Below, piece by piece: positions 1 through 63,977 of a stretch of DNA of 64,000 nucleotides. Where the stretch lies: assembly GCF_964213995.1 (NCBI RefSeq), contig NC_135823.1, positions 372,001-436,000 of the forward strand, given 5' to 3'. The translations under genes and the position numbers were made by a program. The notes under the pieces are model-generated. The model saw only the letters and a list, made by a program, of their open reading frames with translations, did no database searches and was not told the origin of the DNA. The DNA comes from Mustelus asterias. Lineage: Eukaryota. Every line of letters begins with the position of its first letter. The stretch's first letter is position 1.

Positions 1-1580
1 CTATCAAATCTCCCCACAATCTTCTACGCTCCAGGGAATAAAGTCCCAACCTATTCAATCTCTCCCTGTAACTCAGCTTCTCAAGTCCCGGCAACATCCT
101 TGTGAACTTTCTCTGCACTATTTCAATCTTATTTACATCCTTCCTGTAATTAGGTGACCAAAACTGTCCACAATACTCCAAATTCGGCCTTATATAACCT
201 TACCATAACACTCCAACTTTTATACTCGATACTCCGATTGATAAAGGCCAATGTACCAAAGGCACTCGTTACGATCCTATCCACCTGTGACGTCACTTTT
301 AGGGAATTCTGTACCTGTATTCCCAGATCCCTCTGTTCAACTGCACTCTTCAGAGTCCTACCATTTACGCTGTACGTTCTTCTTTTGTTTGTCCTTCCAA
401 AGTGCAATATCTCACCCTTGTCTGCGTTAAATTCCATTTGCCACTTTTCAGCCCATTTTTCTAGTTGGTCCAAATCCCTCTGCAAGCTTTGAAAACCTTC
501 CTCACTGTCCACTACACCTCCAATCTTTGTATCATCAGCAAACTTGCTGATCCAATTGACCACAGTATCATCCAGATCATTGACATAGATGACAAACAAC
601 AATGGACCCAACACCGATCCCTGCGGCACACCACTAGTCACAGGCCTCCACTCAGAGAAGCAATCCTTCACAACCACTCTCTGGCTTCTTCCATTGAGCC
701 AGTGTCTTATCCAATTTACTACCTCCCCATGTATACCTAGCGACTGAACCTTCCGAACTAACCTCCCATGAGGGACCTTGTCAAAGGCCTTGCTGAAATC
801 CAGGTAGACAACATCCACTGCCTTCCCTTCATCCACTTTCCTGGTAACCTCCTCAATAAACTCTAATAGATTGGTCAAACATGACCTACCACGCACAAAG
901 CCATGTTGACTTTCCCTAATAAGTCCCTGTCTATCCAAATATTTGTAGATCCTATCCCTTATCACACCTTCCAATAACCTGCCCACCACCGACGTCAAAC
1001 TTACTGGCCGATAATTTCCCGGATTTCTTTTGGAACCTTTTTTAAACAACGGAACAATTTGAGCCACCCTCCAATCATCCGGCACCTCCCCCGTGAATAC
1101 TGACATTTTAAATATGTCTGCCAGGGCCCCTGCAAGTTCAACACTAGCTTCCCTCAAAGTCCGTGGGAATACCCTGTCCGGTCCTGGGGATTTATCCACT
1201 CTGATTTGCCTCAAGACAGCGAGCACCTCCTCCCCTTTAATCTGTAAATGTTCCATGGCCTCCCTACCAGTTTGCCGTATTTCCGTAGACTCCATGCCCG
1301 TTTCCTCAGTAAATACGGATGCAAAAAAACCATTTAGTATCTCCCCCATCTCTTTTGGTTCCATACACAGTCAACCACTCTGGTCTTCAAGAGGACCAAT
1401 TTTATCCCTCACTATCCTTTTGCTCCTAACATACCTATAGAAGCTCTTTGGATTTTCCTTCACTCTGTCTGCCAAAGCAACCTCATGTCTTCTTTTAGCC
1501 CTCCTGATTTCCCTCTTAAGTAGCTTCTTGCACTTTTTATACTCCTCGAGCATCTGATGTGTTCCTTGCTGCCTGTACAT
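1..1580 (-). mobile_element. CR1 LINE ORF2 (reverse transcriptase) fragment
   Basis: ORFs 150-1364 and 1371-1580 contain [26 protein letters not shown] and FADDTK. Confidence 0.95.
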
Positions 1581-4905: not shown

Positions 4906-7157
4906 TATAGAGTCATAGAGGTTTACAGCATGGAAACAGGCCCTTCGGCCCAACTTGTCCATGCCGCCCTTTTTTCAAAAACCCCTAAGCGAGTACCAAT
5001 TGCCCGCATTTGGCCCATATCCCTGTCTACCCATCATACACATGTAACTATCTAAATGCTTTTTAAAAGACAAAATTTTACCCGCCTCTACTACTACCTC
5101 TGGCAGCTTGTTCCAGACACTCACCGCTCTCTGTGTGAAAAAATTGCCCCTCTGGACACTTTTCTATCTCTCCCCTCTCACCTTAAACCCATGCCCTCTA
5201 GTTTTAGAATCCCCTACCTTTGGGAAAAGATATTGAGTATCTAACTGATCTGTGCCCCTCATCATTTTATAGATCTCTATAAGATCACCCCTCAGCCTCC
5301 TACGCTTCAGAGAAAAATGTCCCAGTCTATCCAGCCTCTCCTCATAACTCAATCCATCAAGTCCCGGTCGCATCCTAGTAAATCTTTTCTGCACTCTTTC
5401 TAGTTTAATAATATCCTTTCTATAATAGGGTGACCAGAATTTCATACAGCATTCCAAGTGTGGCCTTACCAATGTCTTGTACAATTTCAACAAGACTTTC
5501 CAACTCCTGTATTCAATGTTCTGACCGATGAAACCAAGCATGCCAAATGCCTTCTTCACCACTCTGTCCACCTGTGACTCCACTTTCAAGGAGCTATGAA
5601 CATGTACCCCTCGATCTCTTTGTTCTGTAACTCTCTGCAACGCCCTACCATTTACTGAATAAGTCCTGCTCTGGTTCAATCTACCAAACTGCATCACCAC
5701 GCATTTGTCTAAATTAAACTCCATCTGCCATTCGTCAGCCCACTGGCCAATTGACAAAAACTCGTTGCAATTGGAGATAACTTTCTTCACTTTCCATTAT
5801 GCCACCAATTTAGGTGTCATCTGCAAACTTACTAACCATGCCTCCTATATTCTCATCCAAATCATTAATATAAATGACAAATAACAGTGGACCCAGCACT
5901 GATCCCTGAGGCACACCTCTGGTCACAGGCCTCCAGTTTGAAAAACAACGCTCTACAATCACACTCTGGCTTTTGTCCAGAAGCCAATTTTGTATCCATA
6001 TAGTTACCTCACCCTGGATCCCGTGAGATTTAACCTTATGCAACAACCTACCATGCGGTACCTTGTCAAAGCCCTTGCTAAAGTCCATGTAGACAACATC
6101 AACTGCGCTGCCCTCATCTACCTTCTTGGTTACCCCTTCAAAAGACTCAATCAAATTTATGAGACATGATTTTCCACTCACAAAGCCATGCTGACTGTTT
6201 CTCATCAGTCCTTGCATCTCTAAATGCCTGTCGATCCTGTCTCTCTAAATACCTTCCAACAACTTACCCACCACAGATGTGAGGCTCACTGGCCTGTAGT
6301 TCCCAGGCTTTTCTTTGCAGCCCTTTTTAAACAAAGGCACAACATTTGCCACTCTCCAATTTTCAGGCACCTCACCCGTGACTATCGATGATTTAAATAT
6401 CTCGGCGAGGGGACCCGCAATTTCCTCCCTTGCCTCCCACAATGTCCTGGGATACACTTCATCAGGTCCTGGGGACTTCTCTACCAAGATGCGCTTTAAG
6501 ACTTCCAGCACCTCCTTCTCTGTAATATGTACACTCCTCAAGACATCACTATTTATTTCCCCAAGTTCCCTAAAATCCATGCTTTTCTCAACAGTAAATA
6601 CTGATGAGAAATATTCATTTAGGATCTCACCCATCTCTTGTGGATCCGCACATAGATGACCTTGTTGATCCTTAAGAGGCCCGACTCTCTCCCTTGTTAC
6701 TCTTTTGCCCTTTATGTATTTGTAGAAGCTCTTTGGATTCTCCTTTGCCTTATCTGCCAAAACAATCTCGTGTCCCTTTCTGCCCTCCTGATTTCTCTCT
6801 TAACTCTACTCCTACACCCCCTATACTCTTCAAGGGATTCACTTGGTCCCAGCTGCCTATGCATGTCATGCGCCTCTTTCTTCTTCTTGACCAGGGCTTC
6901 AATATCCCAAGTCATCCAGGGTTCCCTACTTCTGCCAGCCTTGCCCTTCACGCTAACCCTGAACCCTGATTAACACACTTTTGAAAGCCTGCTACTTACC
7001 AGACGATCCTTTGCCTTCCCACAAACTCCCCCAATTAACTTTTGAAAGTTCCTGCCTGATCCCATCAAAATTGGCCTTGCCCCAATTTAGAATTTTAACT
7101 TTTGGGCTGGACCTATCATTCACCATAGTTATCTTAAAACTAATAGAATTATGGTCA
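4906..7157 (-). mobile_element. CR1 LINE, 5'-truncated, with 3' UTR
   Basis: Fragmented RT ORFs from 5164 to 6951, and a CR1 3' end with short repeat tail near 4906. Confidence 0.93.
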
Positions 7158-12164: not shown

Positions 12165-14380
12165 TGGTCTCGCCAATGTACCATGCCTTGGGGTATCCTT
12201 TCCTGCAGGTAGACAATGTTGGCTGAGTCGCAAGAGCATGTACTGTGTACCTGGTGGATGGTACTCTCACGTGAGATGGTGGCATCCATGTTGATGATCC
12301 GGCACATCTTGCACAGTTTGCTGTGGAAATACTCACTGTATGGTGTCGTTGTCACTGTTATCCTGAAGGCTGGCTAGTTTGCTGCGAAAAATGGTCTGTT
12401 TGAGGTTGCGCGGTTGTTTGAAGACAAGTAGTGGGGGTGTGGGGATGGCCTTGGCGAGATGTTCGTCTTCATCAATGACATGTTGAAGGCTCCGGAGAAG
12501 ATGTCGTAGTTTCTCCGCTCCGGGTCAGTACAGGACGATGAAGGGTACTCTGTCCACCGTCTCCCGTGTTTGTCTTCTGAGGAGGTCAGTGCGTTTTTTT
12601 GCTGTGGCGCGTCAGAACTGTCGATCGATGAGTCGAGCGCCATATCCTGTTCTTACAATGGCGTCTTGCGGCAACTGTAGGTTTCTGTTGTGTTCCTTCC
12701 CATCTGAGCAGATTCTCTGTATACGGAGGGCTTGTCCATATGACAACATTCCCCATGACGACGGCATTGCTGCAACTGCCTCAGTACTTAACGCCGACAA
12801 TTGCCAATCTTCAGACGCAATTCTGCAACTCATCTGCTTCATCCTGGACCACAACGTCTTCACCTTCAACAACCAGTTCTTCATTCATACACATGGAACC
12901 GCCATGGGGACCAAATTCGCACCTCAGAATGCCAACGTTTTCATGCACAAGTTCGAACAAGATCTCTTCACCACACAGGACCTTCAATAGATGCGATACA
13001 CTAGATACATCGATGACATTTTCTTCCTTTGGACTCACAGCGAAACATGAGTGAAACAACTACATGATGACATCAACAAGTACCCTCCCACCATTAGACT
13101 CACCATGGACTACTCTCCGGAATCGGTTGCATTCGTGGACACACGCATCTCCATCATGGCCTGTCACCTCAGCACCTCACTGTACCGCAAGCCCACGGAT
13201 AACCTCACGATGCTCCACTTCTTCAGCTTCCACCCTAAATACGTTAAAGAAGCCATCCCCTACGGACAAGTCCTCCGGATACACAGGATCTGCTCAGATG
13301 AGGAGGAACAGAATAGAAACCTACAGACGCTGAAAGATGCCCGCGTAAGAACAGGATATGGTGCTCGACTCATCAGTCAACAGTTCCGAAGCGCCACAGC
13401 GGAAAACCACACCGTCCCCCTCAGAACATACACACGGGACACGGTGGACAGAGTACCCTTCGTTGTCCAGTACTTTCCCGGAGCGGAGAAGCTACGACAT
13501 CTTCTCCGGAGCCTTCAACATGTCATTGATGAAGAGGAACATCTCGCCAAGGCTATCCCCACAGCTCCACTTGCCTTCAAACAACTGCGCAACCTCAAAC
13601 AGACCATTGTTCATAGCAAACTACCCAGCATTCAGGAGGACAGCAACCACAACACAACACAGTCCCGCCACAGCAACCTTGCAAGACGTGATGGATCATC
13701 GACACGGATGTCATCATCTCGCATGAGAACATCATCCACCAGGTACACGCTACCTACTCTTGCGACTCGGCCAACGTAATTTACCTGATATGCTGCAGAA
13801 AAGGATGTCCCGAGGCATGGTACATTGGGGAGACCTTGCAGACGCTGCGACAATGGATGAATGGACACCACTCGATAATCACCAGGCAGGAGTGTTCTCA
13901 TCCTGTCGGAGAACACTTCAGCAATCAAGGGCATTCACCCTCCGATCTTTGGGTAAGCATTCTCCAAGGCGGCCTTCAAGACACACGACAATGCAGAATG
14001 GCCGAACAGAAACTGATAGCCGAGTTCCGCACATATGAAGGTGGCCTCAACCGGGATCTTGTGTTCATGTCACACGACCTGTAACCCCCAGGACTTACCT
14101 GGGCTTGCAAAATCTCACTAACAGTCCTGGCTTGAGACAATTCACACCTCTTTAACCTGTACTTAACCCTCTCTCCACTCACATTGTCTGCACCTGTAAA
14201 GACTTGATTACTTGTAAATACTCGCATTCCAACTATTATCTTGTAAATTGAGTCTGTGTCTATATGCCCTGTTTGTGAACCCAATCCTCCACTCACCTGA
14301 TGAAGGGGCAGTGCTCTGAAAGCTCGTGCTACCAAATAAACCTGTTGGACTTTAACGTGGTGTTGTGAGACTTCTTACTG
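12165..14380 (+). mobile_element. Penelope-like element (RT + GIY-YIG) with inverted 5' segment
   Basis: 12740-14084 encodes GTAMGT, RYIDD, LYRKPT, WYIGET and HPVGEHF. 12165-12739 is a minus-strand segment homologous to about 13260-13835. The 3' pLTR has CTGATGA...GAAA near 14297-14321. Confidence 0.9.
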
Positions 14381-24998: not shown

Positions 24999-25043
24999 TT
25001 AGAGTTTTGGATCCTCGTTAAAGGCCAGGCGAGCGTAAAGCGT
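24999..25043 (-). CDS. Candidate terminal cytoplasmic exon with ITSM/ITIM-like tyrosine motif (TLYARLAFNEDPKL*)
   Basis: Good acceptor ttttcatccacAG; the phase-0 reading gives TxYxxL then a stop. It is the first non-repeat sequence downstream of the gap on gene A's strand. Linkage across the gap is unproven. Confidence 0.55.
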   Translation of the reverse strand, partial: TLYARLAFNEDPKL

Positions 25044-26804: not shown

Positions 26805-26972
26805 CCAGTGTCCCTGAATCGGTCTGTCCCTCGGTATCCCGTCCCGAAACATTCCAGAGGACGGGAAAGGAATCGGGAGACACGCCTCTGACCAAACACA
26901 GCAACGGGACTCTTTCCATGGCGGGAATCTCATCCAGCGGCGGAGTGAGGAGGAATATGGTGGGAGAACCCG
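26805..26972 (-). CDS. C1-set Ig exon of gene A (5' part; remainder in N-gap)
   Basis: A 99-nt intron follows VJ, with a tAG acceptor at 26974-26973. In-frame (A)GSPTIFLLTPPLDEIPAMERVPLLCLVRGVSPDSFPVLWNVSGRDTEGQTDSGTL shows the C1 A/B/C-strand pattern (PxIFLLxP, LLCLV, VxW). Confidence 0.88.
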
Positions 26973-27071: not shown

Positions 27072-27410
27072 CTGTAATCACTAACTTGGAGCCATTTCCG
27101 AATATTTGGGCCATGTTCTGGTAATTGCGCATTGCACAGTAATATATCCCAGAATCATTTATCCGGGAATCCGCAATCGTTAGTGAATAAATACGCCGTT
27201 TTTCAGAAATCTCGCTGGAAAATCTCCCCTCAGCTGGGCTGTACTGGTTCGCTCTGTAAATGAAATCCATGTGGTTTCTCTCCCTCTGTCTGTACCAGAA
27301 GACAGAGCCAGCAGCTTGACCCTGGATGCGGCAGCTGAGATTAACAGGACTCCCCGCAAGGATCGTCAGAACCGGCGGAGACTGGGACAAGGTGACCTGA
27401 GACATTGTAA
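27072..27410 (-). CDS. Germline-joined VJ (V-set Ig) exon of gene A
   Basis: (TC)n tract plus cAG acceptor at 27412-27411, then a 339-nt phase 1-1 open exon and donor GTAAAT. Protein has LSC, WYRQ, GRFS, YSLTI, DSGIYYC, an 11-aa CDR3-like loop and the J motif FGNGSKLVIT. No RSS between V and J. Confidence 0.93.
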
Positions 27411-28670: not shown

Positions 28671-29510
28671 AGATGTTCCAGTACTTTCTATTTTTGCTTC
28701 GTTTCTGCTTCTCCTCCGTTGACTGTGGACGCTAAAGTTTGTTCAACAGTTTATAACTGACTCTGACGTTCCACTTGAAGTTCGAGCTTTCTCTCCAAAG
28801 TGGTCAACATTGTTAATGGAGCCCATTGACATATCATATCTCGTGAGAAATGGCAATTCGGATCAATTAAACTCTAATCATTGTTATTAATCGACGTTCC
28901 ATTTTGTCAGTAACATTTGTTTCATTGTTAAGTTAAACTTGCACGCTGAATCACACCTTATAGCACGGCAGAAGACGGGGAGAAGGTAGGTGGGGGGGAA
29001 GGTGGAGGGTGGGGGAGGGTGGGGGGCGTGGGGGCGTGGGTGGCGTGGGGGGACGTGGGGGGGTGGAGGGGGGGTGCGGGGGAGGAGGGGTGGGGGGAAG
29101 GGGTGTGGGGGAGGGGGTTGGGAGGTGGGGGGAGGTGGGGGGTGGAAGGTGGGGGGACCGTTCGGCCGTTCGAGTCGGTGTTGAATCTTTGAAAGATTTC
29201 GCTAACATTACTGAATTTTCCCTCTTAAATACGTATCCAATTCCCCCATTTTGAAAGTTCCAATTGCCGCTTTTGAAAGTTCCTGTTGGATCTGCTTCCT
29301 CCGCCCTTTCAGGCAGAGCCTTCCAGATCGCAACAACTCAGATGGGTAAAAAAATATAACTCCCCTCATCTCCCTCTCTGTTACTATTACCAAATTCTTT
29401 AATCCATGCTCCTTTGGCTCCAGACACTCGTGCCAACGGAAACAGTTTCTGCCTCTTCGCTCTACCTAAATCCTTCTCCACTCTATCTGAAAATAATGAG
29501 GATATCTCAC

Positions 29511-29553
29511 CCTGAAAGAGATGGAACAGTGCACAGATACCGAGGAAACTCAT
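29511..29553 (-). CDS. Leader (signal peptide) exon of VJ-C1 IgSF receptor gene A
   Basis: ATG at 29553 gives MSFLGICALFHLFQ+G (43 nt, phase 1), followed by donor GTGAGA. The phase matches the VJ exon acceptor, giving ...FQ-VTMSQVTLSQ. Confidence 0.8.
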
Positions 29554-35984: not shown

Positions 35985-38097
35985 GACCATAAGACATTGG
36001 AGCAGTATTAGGCCACTCGTCCATAGCGTCTGCTCCACCATTCAATCTTGGCTGATACTTTTCTCATCCCCATTCTCCTGCATTTTGCCCATAACCCCTG
36101 ATACCCTTATTAAGCAAGAACATATCTATCTCTATCTTAAAGACACTCAGTGGTCTGGCCTCCACAGCCTTCTGTGACGAAGAGTTCCACAGATTCACCA
36201 CTCTCTGACTGAAGAAATTCCTCCTCATATCTGTTTTAAAGGTTCGTTCCTTTAGCCTGAGGATGTGCCCTCTGGTTCTAGTTTTTCCTACCAGTGGAAA
36301 TATCCTCTCCACGTCCACTCTATCCAGGCCTCGCAGTATCCTGTAAGTTTCAATAACATCCCCCCCCCCTCGCCCCCCCCCCCCGCCATCCTTCTAAACT
36401 TCAACGAGTACAGACCCAGAGTCCTCAACCGTTCCTCATATGACAAGCCCTTCATTCCAGGAATCATTCTTGTGACCATCCTCTGGACTCTTTCCAAGGC
36501 CAGCACATCCTTCCCTGGATATGGGGCACAAAACTGCTCACAATACTCCAAATGCGGTCTGACCAGAGTCTTATACAGCCTCAGCAGTACATCCCTGCCC
36601 TTGTATTCCAGCCCTCTCGACATGAATGCTAACATTGCATTTTCCTTCCTAACTGCCGATTGAAACTGCACCTTAAGAAAATCTTGAACAATGAGTCCCA
36701 AGTCCCTTTGTGTTTCTGATTTCCGAAGCATTTTTCCATTTAGAAAATAGCCTCTGCCTCCATTTCTCCTTCCAAAGTGCATAACCTCACACTTTTCCAC
36801 ATTGTATTCCATCTGCCACTTCTTTGCCCACTTTCCTAACCTGCCCAGTTCTTTTTCCAACCCTCCTGCTTCCTCAAGACTACCTGTCCCTCTCCATACC
36901 TTTGTATCATTTGGAAACTTAGCAACAGTGCCTTCAGATCCTTCCTCCAAATCGTTAATGTATATTGTGAAAATTTGTGGTCCCAGCACTGACCCCCGAG
37001 GCACGCCACTAGTCACCGGCTGCCATCCTGAAAGAGACGCCGTTATCTCCACTCTCTGTCTTCCGCCAGTCAGCCAATCCTCTGTCCATGCCAGGATCTT
37101 ACTCTTAACACCATGCGCACTTAACTTATTTAACAGTCTCCTATGTAGCACCTTGTCAAAGGCCTTCTGGAAATCCACTGGTTCTCCTTTATCTAACTTC
37201 CTTGTTACCTCCTCAAAGAACTCTAACAGATTCGTCAGATATGAGCACCCATTGACAAAACCTTGCTGACTCATTCCTACTTCATCATGAACTTCAAAGT
37301 ACTCTGCAATCTCATCTTTAATAATTGTCTCTATAATCTTGCCAATGACCGACGTCAGGCTAAGTGGCCTATAAATCCCCATCTGCTGCCTCCGTACCTT
37401 CTTAAACAGCGGTGTTACTGTCCTACTTTCCAATCCTCTGGTACTCTCCCTGCCTCCAGTGATTCCTGAAGTTCACAACCATTGAGTCCACAATTTCCTC
37501 AGTTATCTCTTTTAGAACCCTGGGGTGTAGTCCATCTGGTCCAGGTGACTTATCCACCTTCAGACCTTTCAGTTTCCCCAGAACCTTCTCCTTAGTGATG
37601 GCCACTCCACTCATCTGTGCCCCTTGGCTCTCCTGGAGCTCTGGCATCCCACTGGTGTCTTCCACCGCGAAGACTGATGCAAAGTAACTGTTCAGTTCCT
37701 CTGCCTTCGCTTTGTTTCCTGTTATTACTTCTCCAGCCTCACTTTCCAGTGGTCCAATGGCTATTTCTGCCTCTCTCTTACCTTTTATATATTGAAACAA
37801 AACTCTTCCTATCTTCTTTTATACTACTAGCTAGCTTACACTCATATTTCATGTTCTCATCGCTAATTGTTTTTTTTTTCAGTTGTGCTCTGCTCGCTTT
37901 TAAAGGCATCACAATCCTCTGGCTTCCCACTGATCCTTGCCACTTTGGAAGCTTTTTATTTTGCTTTTATACTGTCCTTGACTTCCCTCGTCAGCCATGG
38001 ATGCCTCGTCCTCTCCTTAACATGTTGCCTCCTTCTTGGGATGAATTTCATTTGTGCCTCCCGAATAACTCTCAAAAACTCCTGCCATTGCTGTTCC
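35985..38097 (-). mobile_element. CR1 LINE fragment
   Basis: RT ORFs 36064-36318, 36288-37433 and 37423-37800. Confidence 0.93.
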
Positions 38098-49859: not shown

Positions 49860-52440
49860 TAAGAACTAGAACATAGAACATTGAACATAGAACAGTACAG
49901 CACAGAACAGACCCTTCGGCCCACGATGTTGTGCCGAGCTTTATCTGAAACCAAGATCAAGCTATCCCACTCCCTATCATTCTGGTGTGCTCCATGTGCC
50001 TATCCAATAACCGCTTAAATGTTCCTAAAGTGTCTGACTCTACTATCACTGCAGGCAGTCCATTCCACACCCCAACCACTCTCTGCGTAAAGAACTTACC
50101 TCTGATATCCTTCCTATATCTCCCACCATGAACCCTATAGTTATGCCCCCTTGTAATAGCTCCATCCACCCGAGGAAATAGTCCTTGCACGTTCACTCTA
50201 TCTATCCCCTTCATCATTTTATAAACCTCTATTAAGTCTCCCCTCAGCCTCCTCCGCTCCAGAGAGAACAGCCCTCGCTCCCTCAACCTTTCCTCATAAG
50301 ACCTACCCTCCAAACCAGGCAGCATCCTGTTAAATCTCCTCTGCACTCTTTCCAGCGCTTCCACATCCTTCTTATAGTGAGGTGACCAGAACTGCACACA
50401 ATATTCCAAATGTGGTCTCACCAAGGTCCTGTCCAGTTGCAGCATAACCCCACGGCTCTTAAACTCCAACCCCCTGTTAATAAAAGCTCACACACTATAG
50501 GCCTTCTTCACAGCTCTATCCACTTGAGTGGCAACCTTTAGAGATCTGTGGATATGGAACCCAAGATCTCTCTGATCATTCACAGTCTTCAGAACCCTAC
50601 CTTTGACCCTGTAATCCACATTTAAATTAGTCCTACCAAAATGAATCACCTCACATTTATCAGGGTTAAACTCCATTTGCCATTTTTCAGCCCAGCTTTG
50701 CATCCTATCTGTGTCTCTTTGCAGCCTACAACAGCCCTCCACCCCATCCACTACTCCATCAATCTTGGTGTCATCAGCAAATTTACTGATCCACCCTTCA
50801 GCGCCCTCCTCTAAGTCATTAATAAAAATCACAAAGAGCAGAGGTCCAAGCACTGATCCTTGTGGCACTCCGCTAGCAACCTGCCTCCAGTCCGAAAGTT
50901 TTCCATCCACCACCACCCTCTGTCTTCGATCAGATAGCCAATTACCTATCCAATCTGCCAACTTTCCCTCTATCCCACAGCTCCTTACTTTCATCATAAG
51001 CCGACCATGCGGACCTTATGAAACACCTTACTAAAATCCAGGTAGATGACATCAACTGCACTACCTTCATCAACACACTTCGTTACCTCCTCAAAAAATT
51101 CAATCAAATTTGTGAGGCACGACTTGCCCTTCACGAATCCGTGCTGACTATCCCGGATTAATCCGCATCTTTCTAAATGGTCGTAAATCCCATCCTTAAG
51201 GATCTTTTCCATCAATTTACCAACCACCGAAGTAAGACTAACCGGTCTATAATTACCAGGGTCATTTCTATTCCCTTTCTTAAACAGAGGAACAACATTC
51301 GCCACTCTGCACTCCTCTGGGACCATCCCGTGGACAGTGAGGCCCAAAAAATCAAAGCCAAAGGCTCTGCAATCTCATTCCTTGCCTCCCAAAGAATCCT
51401 AGGATATATTTCATCAGGCCCAGGGGACTTATCGAACTTCAGTTTATTCAAAATTGCCAGTACATCCTCCCTCCGAATAACTATTTCCTCCAGCCTATTA
51501 GCCTGTCACACCTTCTGTTCCTCAAGAACATGGTGAACACTGAAGAAAAATACTCATTCATCACCTCGCCTATCTCCACTGACTCCATACACAAGTTCCC
51601 ATTACTGTCCTTGAACGGCCCTAACCTCACCCTGGTCATTCTTTTATTCCTCACATAAGAGTAAAAAGCCTTGGGGTTTTCCTTGATCCGACCCGCCAAG
51701 GACTTCTCATGTCCCCTCCTAGCTCTCCTAAGCCCCCTTTTCAGCTAATTCCCTGCTAACTTGTAACCCTCAATCGAGCCATCTGAACCTTGTTTCCTCA
51801 TCCCTACATAAGCTTCCCTCTTCCTTTTCACAAGACATTCCACCTCTTTCGTGAACCATGGTTCCCTCACTCGGCCATTTCCTCCCTGCGTGACAGCGAC
51901 ATACCTATCAAGGACACCCAATATTTGTTCCTTGAAAAAGTTCCACTTTTCATGAGTGCCTTTCCCTGAGAGTTTCTGTTCCCATTTCTGCCCCCAAATT
52001 CTTGCCGAATCGCATCATAATTACCTCTCCCCCACTTGTAAACCTTGCCCTGCCACACGGCCCTATTCCTCTCCATTGCAATAAGAAAAGACACCGAATT
52101 GTGGTCACTATCTCCAAAGTGCTCTCCTACAACCAAATCTAACACTTGGCCCGGTTCATTTCACAGTACCAAATTCAATGTGGCCTCACCTCTTGTCGGC
52201 CTATCCACATATTGTGTCAGGAAACCCTCCTGCACACACTGCACAAAAACTGCCCCATCCGAACTATTTGACCTACAAAGGTTCCAATCAATATTTGGAA
52301 AGTTAAAGTCCCCCATGACAACTACCCTGTGACCACCACAGATATCCATAATCTGCTTAGCAATTTCTTCCTCCACATCTCTATCTCTATACTTATATCT
52401 ATTAGTATCTATATCTATAATTTCTTCCTCCACATCTCCA
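49860..52440 (-). mobile_element. CR1 LINE, endonuclease-to-3' end, degraded
   Basis: APE motif GDFNFPNIDW (52161-52433), RT motifs from 50488 to 51451, and a 3' tail near 49870. Confidence 0.95.
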
Positions 52441-60580: not shown

Positions 60581-61199
60581 GCCCCTCATACCATAATAAA
60601 GATTCATTTCCATGACAACACTATTATCATTGTACTATGCAACTACCAGGATGGTAGAATGTAATCATTATGGTGCTTTGCGTTTTTCAGTTTTGTAATT
60701 CACATGTTACTAAATCCAATTTTGTCAGGCTTTGCAAGAAAGTTTTTAGTTGGCGATAGAGGGTTTCAGTGCTCCTGGTTCCTCTGCATCGGAGTCACAT
60801 CAGTCTAAGCATTTCCACCTTGTTTACTCTTCAATCAAAAGGTACAATCAAATGAGGTTCAGTGCAACATTTGCAGTTTCTGGTGAACTATATTGTAAAA
60901 TTCATCTCCCAGCTACTGGCCAACAAAATGCATTGCCGATTTAGATGAGCTTTTGACTTTCCCGTTCTTGTGAATGTGAACTTTGATTATATTATAAACA
61001 GAAATGTCGGAGAAACTCAGCACCTTTTGCAGATCCGTGGAGACATAAACACCTTGTTCTTGTCACCAATATTACCAGGGACAATTCAAAAATGGACAAA
61101 CCTTAGATAAGGGAAACGAATTTACCAAGTAAAAGCAGATAGATGCATACGGAGAGACAGAGAGAGAGAGAGGGAAATAGAGTGAGTGAGGGAATGAAA

Positions 61200-61705
61200 T
61201 AGGGAAGGATGGATAGAAATGAAGACAGATAGAAAAACAGATAAATGGATAGAGGAAAGAGTATACAGATGGGTGGGCAAATGGATGGAGGGACGGACTG
61301 ACGGAGGGATCGATGGATGGATGAACGGATGGATTGACGGACGGATCAATGGATGACTGCAGGACAATGGNNNNNNNNNNNNNNNNNNNNNNNNNNNNNN
61401 NNNNNNNNNNNNNNNNNNNNNNNNNNNNNNNNNNNNNNNNNNNNNNNNNNNNNNNNNNNNNNNNNNNNNNNNNNNNNNNNNNNNNNNNNNNNNNNNNNNN
61501 NNNNNNNNNNNNNNNNNNNNNNNNNNNNNNNNNNNNNNNNNNNNNNNNNNNNNTCTGATGGACAAACAGACGGATGGATGGATGGACGGATGGATGGACG
61601 GACGGATGGACGGACGGGCGGATGGATGGACGGACGGGCGGGCGGACGGGCGGGATGGACGGACGGATGGATGGACGGACCGGCGGATGGATGGAATGGT
61701 GGACA
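61200..61705. repeat. (GGAT/GGAC)n tetranucleotide repeat containing an N-run
   Basis: Direct inspection. Confidence 0.9.
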
Positions 61706-63253
61706 ATGAACAGTCGACTGTCGGGTACAGAATGAGGAAATGAGGGCCTCAATGTTTCTGTGCACTCCTTCACAAATTAATTTAAAGTTAATCTCATTAC
61801 CAGATTCCCTCTCGAGATTCCAGCACCCATCAGGAAATTATCCCAAATTCTACTCTGCAATGCAACAGCTTCACCTCCACCCCCACGGCCCGTCAGTCTG
61901 AAGAATATACCTCTCTGCCTGCATGTATTTGTCTTTCTATCCATCTTCCCACGTTTCTTTCAAGGTTCACCCTTTATTATTTCGTGACAGCCATCTTACA
62001 GGATACATGAAAGTCTGTGGAAATCCATGCACGTTATACCAAATGCGTTCTTTTTTATTGTCCATTCGGATACTTCTTCCAAAATAATCTCCATTATCCC
62101 TGTTAAACATGATTGCACTTCCACAACTCGCTGCTCGCTGTCCTAAGATGAATGATCAGATCAATCCCAAGATGGGGTGCAATGCCTTCTCCTGTCAGTT
62201 TGGATCTTGTTTGTCTCCCTTGCGGGGACCTTAAAACGGATTCAATCAGATTTTGAATTTGATTTTTGGACCAAGCAAGGAATGGATTTGGGGTTTCCCT
62301 GTCCATTCTGAACATTGGCTTTGTAACTATAAGGATGGAGAAGAAAATAAAATAAAATAAATAACTAATAACTAGGAAATAGTCGTAAATTTCACTTCGG
62401 ATAATAGATGATAAACGTGTGTCCTCCACTCACTACATACTTAATTCTTCATAATTCCCAAACTGATTTTCAGATGGATGCAACTTTCAAGGTACAGCGT
62501 TTTGTTCGGACGGATCGAATTAATGTTGAGTTCCTTGTTAGGGTTAGTGATATGGAGAGGATTAAAATATGGCTTATCGCTGGTGTTACGGTTAGTGTTT
62601 GGTTTATTGCAAGGGTTAGCGTGAGGGTTAATGTTAGCACGAGGCTTAGGTCAGGGATAAGATTAGTGTTGCGGTTATTTTCGGGCGATGCAGTCAGAAA
62701 AAAATGGTTTCGAAATTGGAAAGGGGGGAAAGTGATATAGGATCCAGATACACACATAATTGATACAAAGTTTAATTAAACCATAAATACAAAAAAAACC
62801 CCAGACCATGTGGGTGACGCCCAAGTAAATCGATTTGAAAAGTTGAAGGTCTATGTTGAAATATCATCACCGTTAGTTAGGGGAACACTTGTACTCCTGT
62901 GAATGACTCTGATGTTCACATTATTGAATTAATATAGAGCGATTGGGGAATTTGCGACGAGGAAACTTTATTGGGATTTTACCTGAACAGAGATTGTATA
63001 ATGATCAGGAAAGGTGGAACAGGTTGAGGCTCTTTCGTTTAAACATGACACCGAGACAGTTAAGATGTTGAAGCATAACTGACGAATGCAGAGACTGTGC
63101 AATTAACAATCACAAGAAGTTTATTATTTATTAGTGTCACAGGTAGGCTGGCATTAACACTGCAATGAAGAATAAATAAATGTGAAAGTTTTGAAGCAAA
63201 AATAAACGTTGTTAGCAAATAACCAATAATAGGAGGAAAATGTTAATATCCAC

Positions 63254-63559
63254 CTCTCTCAGATGAGACACTTCCACTGACAAGATGTTGACTGGAGTTG
63301 ATCTGAACGGCGCAGATACACCGAGCTCCGCTGCTCCAAGATTCCGCCGGGAGAATTATGTAACTTCTGATTGTATAAGTTCCATCTGGATCGATTGCAC
63401 CAGAATCAATCCTGCCCTCCATAAGCCGCCCAGACACATTCCAGTGGATGGCGCAGTTATTTGAATCCACACTCTTCACCAAACATACCAAAGGGACCAT
63501 TTCCACCTGGGGAATTTCAACCAGTGGCGGAGTTAAGAGATAGATGATTGGGGTTCCCG
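63254..63559 (-). pseudogene. C1-set exon of pseudogene B
   Basis: GTPIIYLLTPPLVEIPQVEMVPLVCLVKSV...IHWNVSG...DPDGTYTIRSYIILPAESWSSGARCICAV...SSER with donor GTGGAT. About 79-nt V-C intron, with no AG at the homologous acceptor position. 31/55 aa identical to gene A C1. Confidence 0.88.
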
Positions 63560-63638
63560 GAGGAGTAAGATTCAGGCACTATTGAACATACGTTTCTTGG
63601 TGATTCATGATAAAATGAGAAAATAATATTTTTTGTTC

Positions 63639-63977
63639 CTGTAATGAGCAATGTGGAGTCGCTTCCAAACATAGAAGACATCCCACTGAACTGCTCAGCT
63701 GCACAGCAATACAGCCCCGAGTCATTGGCCCGGATTACAGCGATGGCTTGGGAATAGAGAGTCAATTTGTCATTACCGTCTCCTGAAAATCTCCCGTTTG
63801 AAGGGTTGCTTTTTGTCACGGTGTAAACAAGCTGTAGATGCTCACGTTGGCGCCGTTTATACTAACGGACAACTCCCCCTGCCAATCAGCCCGTGTGACA
63901 ATGCACCTTGTAGGTGCATCCAAGCGACAGAGTCTGGATCGCCAGGGTCTGGGACAAAACTGCCTGAGATACAATAC
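63639..63977 (-). pseudogene. VJ exon of paralogous VJ-C1 pseudogene B
   Basis: ctctctcAG acceptor and a 339-nt exon colinear without gaps with gene A VJ (41/113 aa identical by hand). In-frame TGA (63888-63886) and TAG replacing the conserved Trp (63864-63862). Shows DSGLYCC and FGSDSTLLIT; donor mutated to GA. The leader lies outside the window. Confidence 0.9.

What the first reader, a model, noticed from the sequence alone, without database searches (positions are those of the whole stretch)
63254..63977. Pseudogene B shows V diverging faster than C with perfectly conserved length
By hand alignment, VJ is 41/113 (about 36%) identical to gene A with zero indels and the same 11-aa CDR3 length, while C1 is 31/55 (about 56%) identical. 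It is inactivated by two nonsense codons and loss of both V-C splice sites. Inference: the paralogs diversified their ligand-binding domain under structural constraint long before B died, i.e. a germline-encoded repertoire.
Basis: partly seen in the sequence, partly recalled or inferred. Interest (0 to 1): 0.7.

Follow-up and report, generated by a model that had tools for sequence, protein, structure and literature searches.

The report
Chimeric dead shark immune receptor gene
This is a broken copy of a shark gene for an antibody-shaped surface receptor that needs no DNA rearrangement, and its binding domain differs from its neighbour's more than its constant domain does, likely because an old binding-domain lineage was joined to a younger shared stalk, not because that domain adapted faster.

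Summary
The counts are right: VJ 41/112 without indels, both CDR3 11 aa, C1 31/55, two stops, both V-C1 splice sites lost. B is one of 5 broken copies of its lineage in a cluster of 47 VJ-C1 loci; an intact ortholog exists in a catshark. Neutral decay does not explain V>C1. But the excess is as large at silent sites: among intact A paralogs omega is 0.62 (V) against 0.63 (C1), and C1 is the unusually young exon. B is likely a chimera: its V, intron and junction follow the ancient E lineage, its C1 and TM follow A (informative sites 34:50 against 64:9, p=5e-10). V trees reject A+B; C1 trees favour it without rejecting B+E. CDR loops do evolve faster than framework (omega 1.27 against 0.46) but not clearly above 1. 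The family is likely PRARP-like; membership could not be tested. The scan reached this reading before on another B copy (e1-9571091).

The parts
63639..63977 (-). Gene B germline-joined VJ exon (339 nt, 112 codons), E-lineage type
   Evidence: Pfam V-set on the stop-free part; V trees
63886..63888 (-). Nonsense codon TGA at V codon 30 (Trp in 3 of the 4 other B copies, in E and in the catshark ortholog)
63862..63864 (-). Nonsense codon TAG at V codon 38, the canonical C-strand Trp
63557..63638 (-). V-C1 intron, 82 nt; donor GT>GA, acceptor AG>GG, 8-nt deletion; closer to the E intron than to A introns
63254..63556 (-). Gene B C1 exon (303 nt, open frame); E-type 5' junction, A-type body
   Evidence: Pfam C1-set 5.7e-6
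61053..63253 (-). Intron after C1, 81-84% identical to other B copies; the TM and tail exons that follow in other copies were not found in the window
29508..29553 (-). Gene A leader exon
27072..27410 (-). Gene A VJ exon (339 nt, open)
   Evidence: Pfam V-set 1.2e-15
26805..26972 (-). Gene A C1 exon, readable 5' part (55 codons)
24999..25043 (-). Gene A last exon with the TLYARL tyrosine motif and stop

Best explanation
Gene B is a dead copy of a shark non-rearranging VJ-C1 membrane receptor lineage that likely arose when unequal crossover joined the V exon and intron of an ancient lineage (E) to the C1, TM and tail of the A lineage, so its V is likely much older relative to gene A than its C1 is. 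Shown: the lesions; the family; equal whole-domain omega; the switch of affinity at the start of C1. Inferred: the crossover lay in the first codons of C1 and predates the split from catsharks; C1 exons are further homogenised among A genes by gene conversion; CDR loops drift under relaxed or weakly positive selection on a fixed-length frame; B then died about when it was amplified to 5 copies. Predicted function of intact members: inhibitory-type surface receptors (TxYxxL tail) that would pair with the interleaved D-type chains in a Fab/TCR-like dimer.
For: V protein tree: A clade with ray and sawshark relatives 99/97 excludes B; forcing A+B is rejected, p-AU 2e-6 and 0.001; DNA tree B+E 98/99, A+B p=0.011. 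C1 tree: B plus 14 A rows 98/96. Informative nucleotides B=A:B=E are 34:50 in V and 64:9 in C1 (p=5e-10); third positions 15:20 and 25:1 (p=8e-6). Amino-acid sites 3:14 and 7:1 (p=0.0017). The one-codon junction indel splits the 20 aligned proteins into A type (11) and E type (9, with B), rays on both sides. TM exons of 3 B copies are 65-77% identical to A and 55-62% to E; the catshark ortholog's tail is 41-54% to shark A rows and 19-38% to shark E rows. On the A stem dS is 0.90 in V and 0.17 in C1, with omega 0.29 and 0.41; the B stem is equal in both. Among 9-10 intact A genes V has twice the dS and twice the dN of C1 (C1 scale 0.53, p=8e-4); A1 x A2 third-position difference is 0.38 V, 0.30 TM, 0.21-0.40 in flanks of V, C1, TM and cyt1, 0.16 C1, with higher GC3 in C1. 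Pairing: score 0.72 against best control 0.02 (mark reached by 51 of 78 solved and 2 of 108 mismatched pairs; 87% contact agreement, partner pLDDT 80), for horn shark A and D chains; this may come from likeness to solved Fab/TCR structures.
Against: No C1-side test firmly rejects B+E: p-AU 0.087 and 0.0499, 0.18 and 0.11 with the tail added, 0.18 on DNA (0.011 only when the relic L050 is left free). Four-fold sites alone show no V excess between B and A1 (0.46 V, 0.52 C1), and 9 of 12 single-pair silent-site tests are not significant. The site counts use one E sequence. The A-stem dS intervals nearly touch (about 0.45 to above 1.6 against 0 to 0.55). Real site-level selection exists in A-type V (M8 against M8a p=0.009). 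In D genes the dS gap is small (1.09 against 0.88) and omega is higher in V (0.69 against 0.54). No expression or ligand data.
Confidence: 0.7

Rival explanations
1. One reading: A and B share one history for both exons, and V diverged more because it was under diversifying or relaxed selection while C1 was held by purifying selection; B's C1 resembles A's only because E's C1 evolved fast.
For: CDR omega 1.27 against 0.46 in framework (p=1e-9); 16 sites with posterior above 0.9, 13 of them in or beside CDR1, CDR2, HV4 and CDR3; C1-side AU tests do not reject B+E; four-fold sites equal between B and A1; E C1 branches are long; 4 of 7 B=A residues in C1 are shared with outgroups.
Against: Selection on residues does not predict the doubled dS, the 25:1 against 15:20 third-position switch, or A-type TM exons in B. 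Stem omega is not higher in V. CDR omega is not significantly above 1 (p=0.17).
Confidence: 0.17
2. B is an ordinary E-lineage gene whose C1 exon (and separately TM) was overwritten by repeated gene conversion from neighbouring A genes, with no single founding crossover.
For: C1 is homogenised among A genes while TM and introns are not; B copies sit among A genes; conversion of C domains is reported for shark UrIg2 (PMC12227049).
Against: TM exon and tail are also A-type in B copies and in the catshark ortholog, which needs a long tract; B C1 forms its own clade with the catshark ortholog (89/94), so exchange has not been recent.
Confidence: 0.1
3. The V/C1 gap is neutral decay of the pseudogene or small-sample noise.
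For: Only 55 C1 codons of A are readable; p=0.02.
Against: B copies diverge equally in both exons, omega not different from 1; the gap holds for the intact catshark ortholog (V 35-44%, C1 50-62% to the 8 intact A loci compared).
Confidence: 0.03

Closest known systems
PRARP (Fu et al. 2019; Ohta et al. 2019). Neither paper was held; title seen in a reference list, one-line mentions read; other features recalled
   Same: Single-exon VJ with a J motif, one C1, TM, tyrosine motif, two chain types side by side; relatives in gar, sturgeon, paddlefish, lungfish, coelacanth, caecilian, turtles and lizards
   Different: Here a cluster of 47 loci with many pseudogenes and mosaic members, against a recalled gene pair in chicken; no sequence named PRARP and no bird among the 30 clusters looked up
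UrIg and UrIg2 of elasmobranchs (PMC12227049: abstract and parts 1-2 of 8 read)
   Same: Non-rearranging VJ exon followed by C1; C domains homogenised by gene conversion in UrIg2
   Different: UrIg has three C1 domains and is secreted; UrIg2 has nine or more; this family has one C1, a TM and a Tyr tail and is multicopy
Partial homogenisation in paired leukocyte receptors: KLRC, KLRA, PIR (PMC3210942, abstract only)
   Same: Gene conversion limited to part of the gene gives exons with different histories
   Different: There the ligand-binding part is homogenised; here the constant exon is, and the V lineages stay distinct
Rearranging Ig and TCR chains
   Same: V-set plus C1-set domains; best PDB matches are antibody and TCR chains
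   Different: V and J lie in one germline exon 82-99 nt from C1 in the window's genes; each V has its own C1, TM and tail

Membership tests
PRARP | Germline-joined VJ in one exon with FGxG J motif | tested here: met
   339-nt exon, FGNG in A, FGSD in decayed B
PRARP | One C1-set domain after V (recalled for non-avian members) | tested here: met
   Pfam C1-set; one C1 in ~300-aa relatives
PRARP | TM and cytoplasmic ITIM/ITSM-like tyrosine motif (recalled) | tested here: met
   TxYxxL-type tails in A, E and the catshark B ortholog; not found for the window's B copy
PRARP | Two chain types forming disulfide-linked dimers (recalled) | tested here: inconclusive
   A/E/B and D types interleaved; stalk Cys invariant in 20 of 20 A/B/E rows; model 0.72 against 0.02, possibly by likeness to Fab/TCR
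PRARP | Orthology with chicken PRARP1/2 in a tree | not testable with these tools
   No record named PRARP was returned
PRARP | Linkage to MHC or an MHC paralogon | not tested
   Flanking genes of the cluster were not examined
UrIg / UrIg2 | VJ plus three or more C1 domains; UrIg secreted | tested here: not met
   One C1 then TM exon against PMC12227049
Germline-joined shark Ig light chain | VJ-C with no TM or signalling tail (recalled) | tested here: not met
   TM and tail exons in paralogs and other B copies
SIRP | V plus two C1 domains in the canonical members (recalled) | tested here: not met
   Single C1 in the relatives read; no tree against SIRP was built

The most novel reading that the evidence does not exclude
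Sharks keep a germline, combinatorial two-chain receptor repertoire: about 11 intact A/E chains and 11 intact D chains pair like TCR or Fab chains, and new specificities are made by shuffling V exons older than the shark-ray split onto a C1-TM stalk that gene conversion keeps uniform so that any V still pairs with any partner chain. Lineage B is a dated example of such a V swap.
Probability: 0.25. Interest if true: 0.7.

Novelty: new variant of a known kind. Interest (0 to 1): 0.38.

Why it matters
V diverging more than C is common in immune receptor families and alone is unremarkable. The useful result is the cause: here the constant exon is young and the V lineages are old, so a V/C identity gap is not evidence of adaptive V evolution. 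Non-rearranging VJ-C1 genes are candidate relatives of the gene that the RAG transposon split; a multicopy shark family that diversifies by exon exchange shows what a repertoire could do without rearrangement. The intact catshark B ortholog makes this testable.

Tried and rejected
Neutral decay: rejected. Assembly error as source of the lesions: unlikely; contigs of run X1 match 63386-63806 and 63795-63948 with no difference, but X1 may be the window's own sample. No RNA holder listed. Positive selection across D-type V: M8 not significant (p=0.15-0.52). Leader exon of B: not found in the stretches fetched upstream (L018, L060, L061) with A, E or catshark leaders. C1 plus tail tree did not sharpen the AU test. 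Literature: eight searches returned no paper that describes this shark cluster or a V/C1 mosaic in it; the Fu 2019, Ohta 2019 and Flajnik 2023 papers were not held, so they and their supplements may already describe it; the supplement of PMC10751288 has no 'PRARP'. Rows dropped before trees: Mustelus-named proteins as near duplicates of G000 loci, and 10 near-duplicate or truncated rows; 3 loci on other contigs left out of the cluster count; L024 left out of codon models because its V is split by an insertion.

Full report
Observation. The minus strand holds a 339-nt VJ exon (63977-63639), an 82-nt intron and a 303-nt C1 exon (63556-63254). Against gene A the V is 41 of 112 identical with no gap, CDR3 is 11 aa in both, C1 is 31 of 55, p=0.02. 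Two stops and both splice lesions are present. A's C1 is readable for 55 codons only; paralogs hold about 3.7 kb more at that place, with the rest of C1, the TM exon and one tail exon, so A's own completeness cannot be judged. B's C1 exon is one codon shorter than A's. The window's B copy also lacks detectable TM and tail exons, which 3 of the 4 other B copies keep at least in part.

Family. Searches of G000 found a cluster on contig C23. I classified 47 loci there: 18 A-type (10 with open V and C1 and good splice sites, gene A included), 23 D-type (11), 5 B-type (0) and 1 E-type (1), with A/B and D largely interleaved. Relatives are ~300-aa leader-V-C1-TM-tail proteins with a TxYxxL-type motif in sharks and rays, and more distant ones in gar, sturgeon, paddlefish, lungfish, coelacanth, caecilian, turtles and lizards (30 clusters of the 150 best hits looked up). 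The catshark protein P0215 is an intact B ortholog: it groups with B in V (92/75) and C1 (89/94) trees.

Test 1, neutral decay. The five B copies are 77% alike in V and 75% in C1; for the four usable ones omega does not differ from 1 (0.75, 1.23). The B stem was under purifying selection (0.21, 0.32).

Test 2, intact paralogs. V is less identical than C1 in 43 of 45 A pairs and 50 of 55 D pairs. But in A the codon model gives omega 0.62 for V and 0.63 for C1, with tree dS 1.25 against 0.64; a separate neutral scale for C1 (0.53) is preferred, p=8e-4. Between subgroups A1 and A2, third-position difference is 0.38 in V, 0.30 in TM, 0.26 in tail exon 1 and 0.16 in C1; 60-nt flanks of these exons differ by 0.21-0.40. 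C1 is thus the outlier, and has higher GC3 and CpG. I infer gene conversion in the one long conserved exon. Within V, CDR omega is 1.27 against 0.46 elsewhere (p=1e-9) but not above 1 (p=0.17); M8 beats M8a for A (p=0.009) and not for D. My codon models are home-written, ignore recombination, and some 'intact' genes may be recent pseudogenes.

Test 3, ancestry of B's exons. B's V is 49% identical to E and 32-39% to A; its C1 is 48% to E and 55-62% to A. V trees keep B out of the A clade (99/97) and reject A+B (p-AU 2e-6, 0.001, 0.011). C1 trees put B with 14 A rows (98/96; DNA 84/81) but mostly do not reject B+E (0.087, 0.0499, 0.18, 0.11, 0.18). Informative sites switch at the exon border: 34:50 in V, 64:9 in C1; third positions 15:20 and 25:1. 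The intron (z 2.1-4.0 to E, -0.8 to 2.2 to A) and the one-codon junction indel are E-type; TM exon and tail are A-type. Branch models place the whole excess on the A stem, at silent sites: dS 0.90 in V, 0.17 in C1, omega 0.29 and 0.41; the B stem is the same in both exons. Against this, four-fold sites alone are level between B and A1 (0.46, 0.52). Since rays carry both A- and E-type genes, I infer that B's V split from A's before the shark-ray split, while its C1 split after the horn shark lineage and before catsharks.

How it likely works. Shown: birth and death of whole genes, fixed V length (34 of 39 parsed CDR3 are 11 aa), faster change in CDR loops. Inferred: crossover in the first codons of C1 made lineage B; conversion keeps C1 uniform. 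Predicted: intact chains are inhibitory-type receptors that pair with D chains; the horn shark A-D model scored 0.72 against 0.02 for the best control (51 of 78 solved and 2 of 108 mismatched pairs reach the mark; 87% contact agreement; partner pLDDT 80), which may only reflect likeness to Fab and TCR structures and does not exclude homodimers. No ligand or expression data were obtained.

Known systems. Architecture and distribution fit PRARP as I recall it; the defining papers were not held and no named PRARP sequence was returned, so membership is likely but untested. UrIg/UrIg2 differ in C1 number (PMC12227049, abstract and parts 1-2 of 8 read). PMC10751288 (passages, section 13, supplement search) and PMC11599192 (one passage) only mention PRARP. 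PMC3210942 (abstract) describes part-gene homogenisation in the opposite direction.

Earlier notes. After my own tests, the scan's index showed the same mosaic reading for another B copy (e1-9571091) and the two-chain reading for another member (e1-8606029). They agree but are not independent support.

Verdict. Real feature, accurately counted; the adaptive reading is incomplete. Interest 0.38.

Noticed in passing
G000:C23:79 kb-1.71 Mb (L001-L049): A second chain type (D, 23 loci on C23) alternates with the A/B genes, strictly so in the first 600 kb apart from the B copies; D chains lack the FGxG motif and keep a stalk Cys.
   Followed up: partly
window gene A, after 26805 on the minus strand: Paralogs L053 and L054 hold about 3.7 kb more than the window here, including the TM exon; assembly gap or deletion cannot be told apart.
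   Followed up: partly
L021 and L024: These two B copies share three single-base deletions, so they were likely duplicated after death; L024's V exon is split by an insertion of about 3 kb.
   Followed up: partly
window 63785-63932, run X3 (organism B): One low-depth contig of another organism appears to share the codon-30 stop but not the codon-38 stop, hinting that B died before that species split; inferred from depths only.
   Followed up: no
L016 (G000:C23:3.23 Mb), L033, L050; L017 and L034 on C73: An outlying E-D pair with an old relic lies 1.5 Mb from the main cluster, and a second E-like and D-like copy sit on contig C73.
   Followed up: no
window 150-1370, 5164-6799, 36288-37818, 49957-51505; 12374-14084: Reverse-transcriptase-like fragments of LINE type and a decayed element that looks Penelope-like (labels recalled, not tested).
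   Followed up: no
proteins P0031, P0036, P0026, P0016, P0017: Several database models lack the TM segment, suggesting secreted or cytoplasmic-tail-only splice forms, or annotation errors.
   Followed up: no
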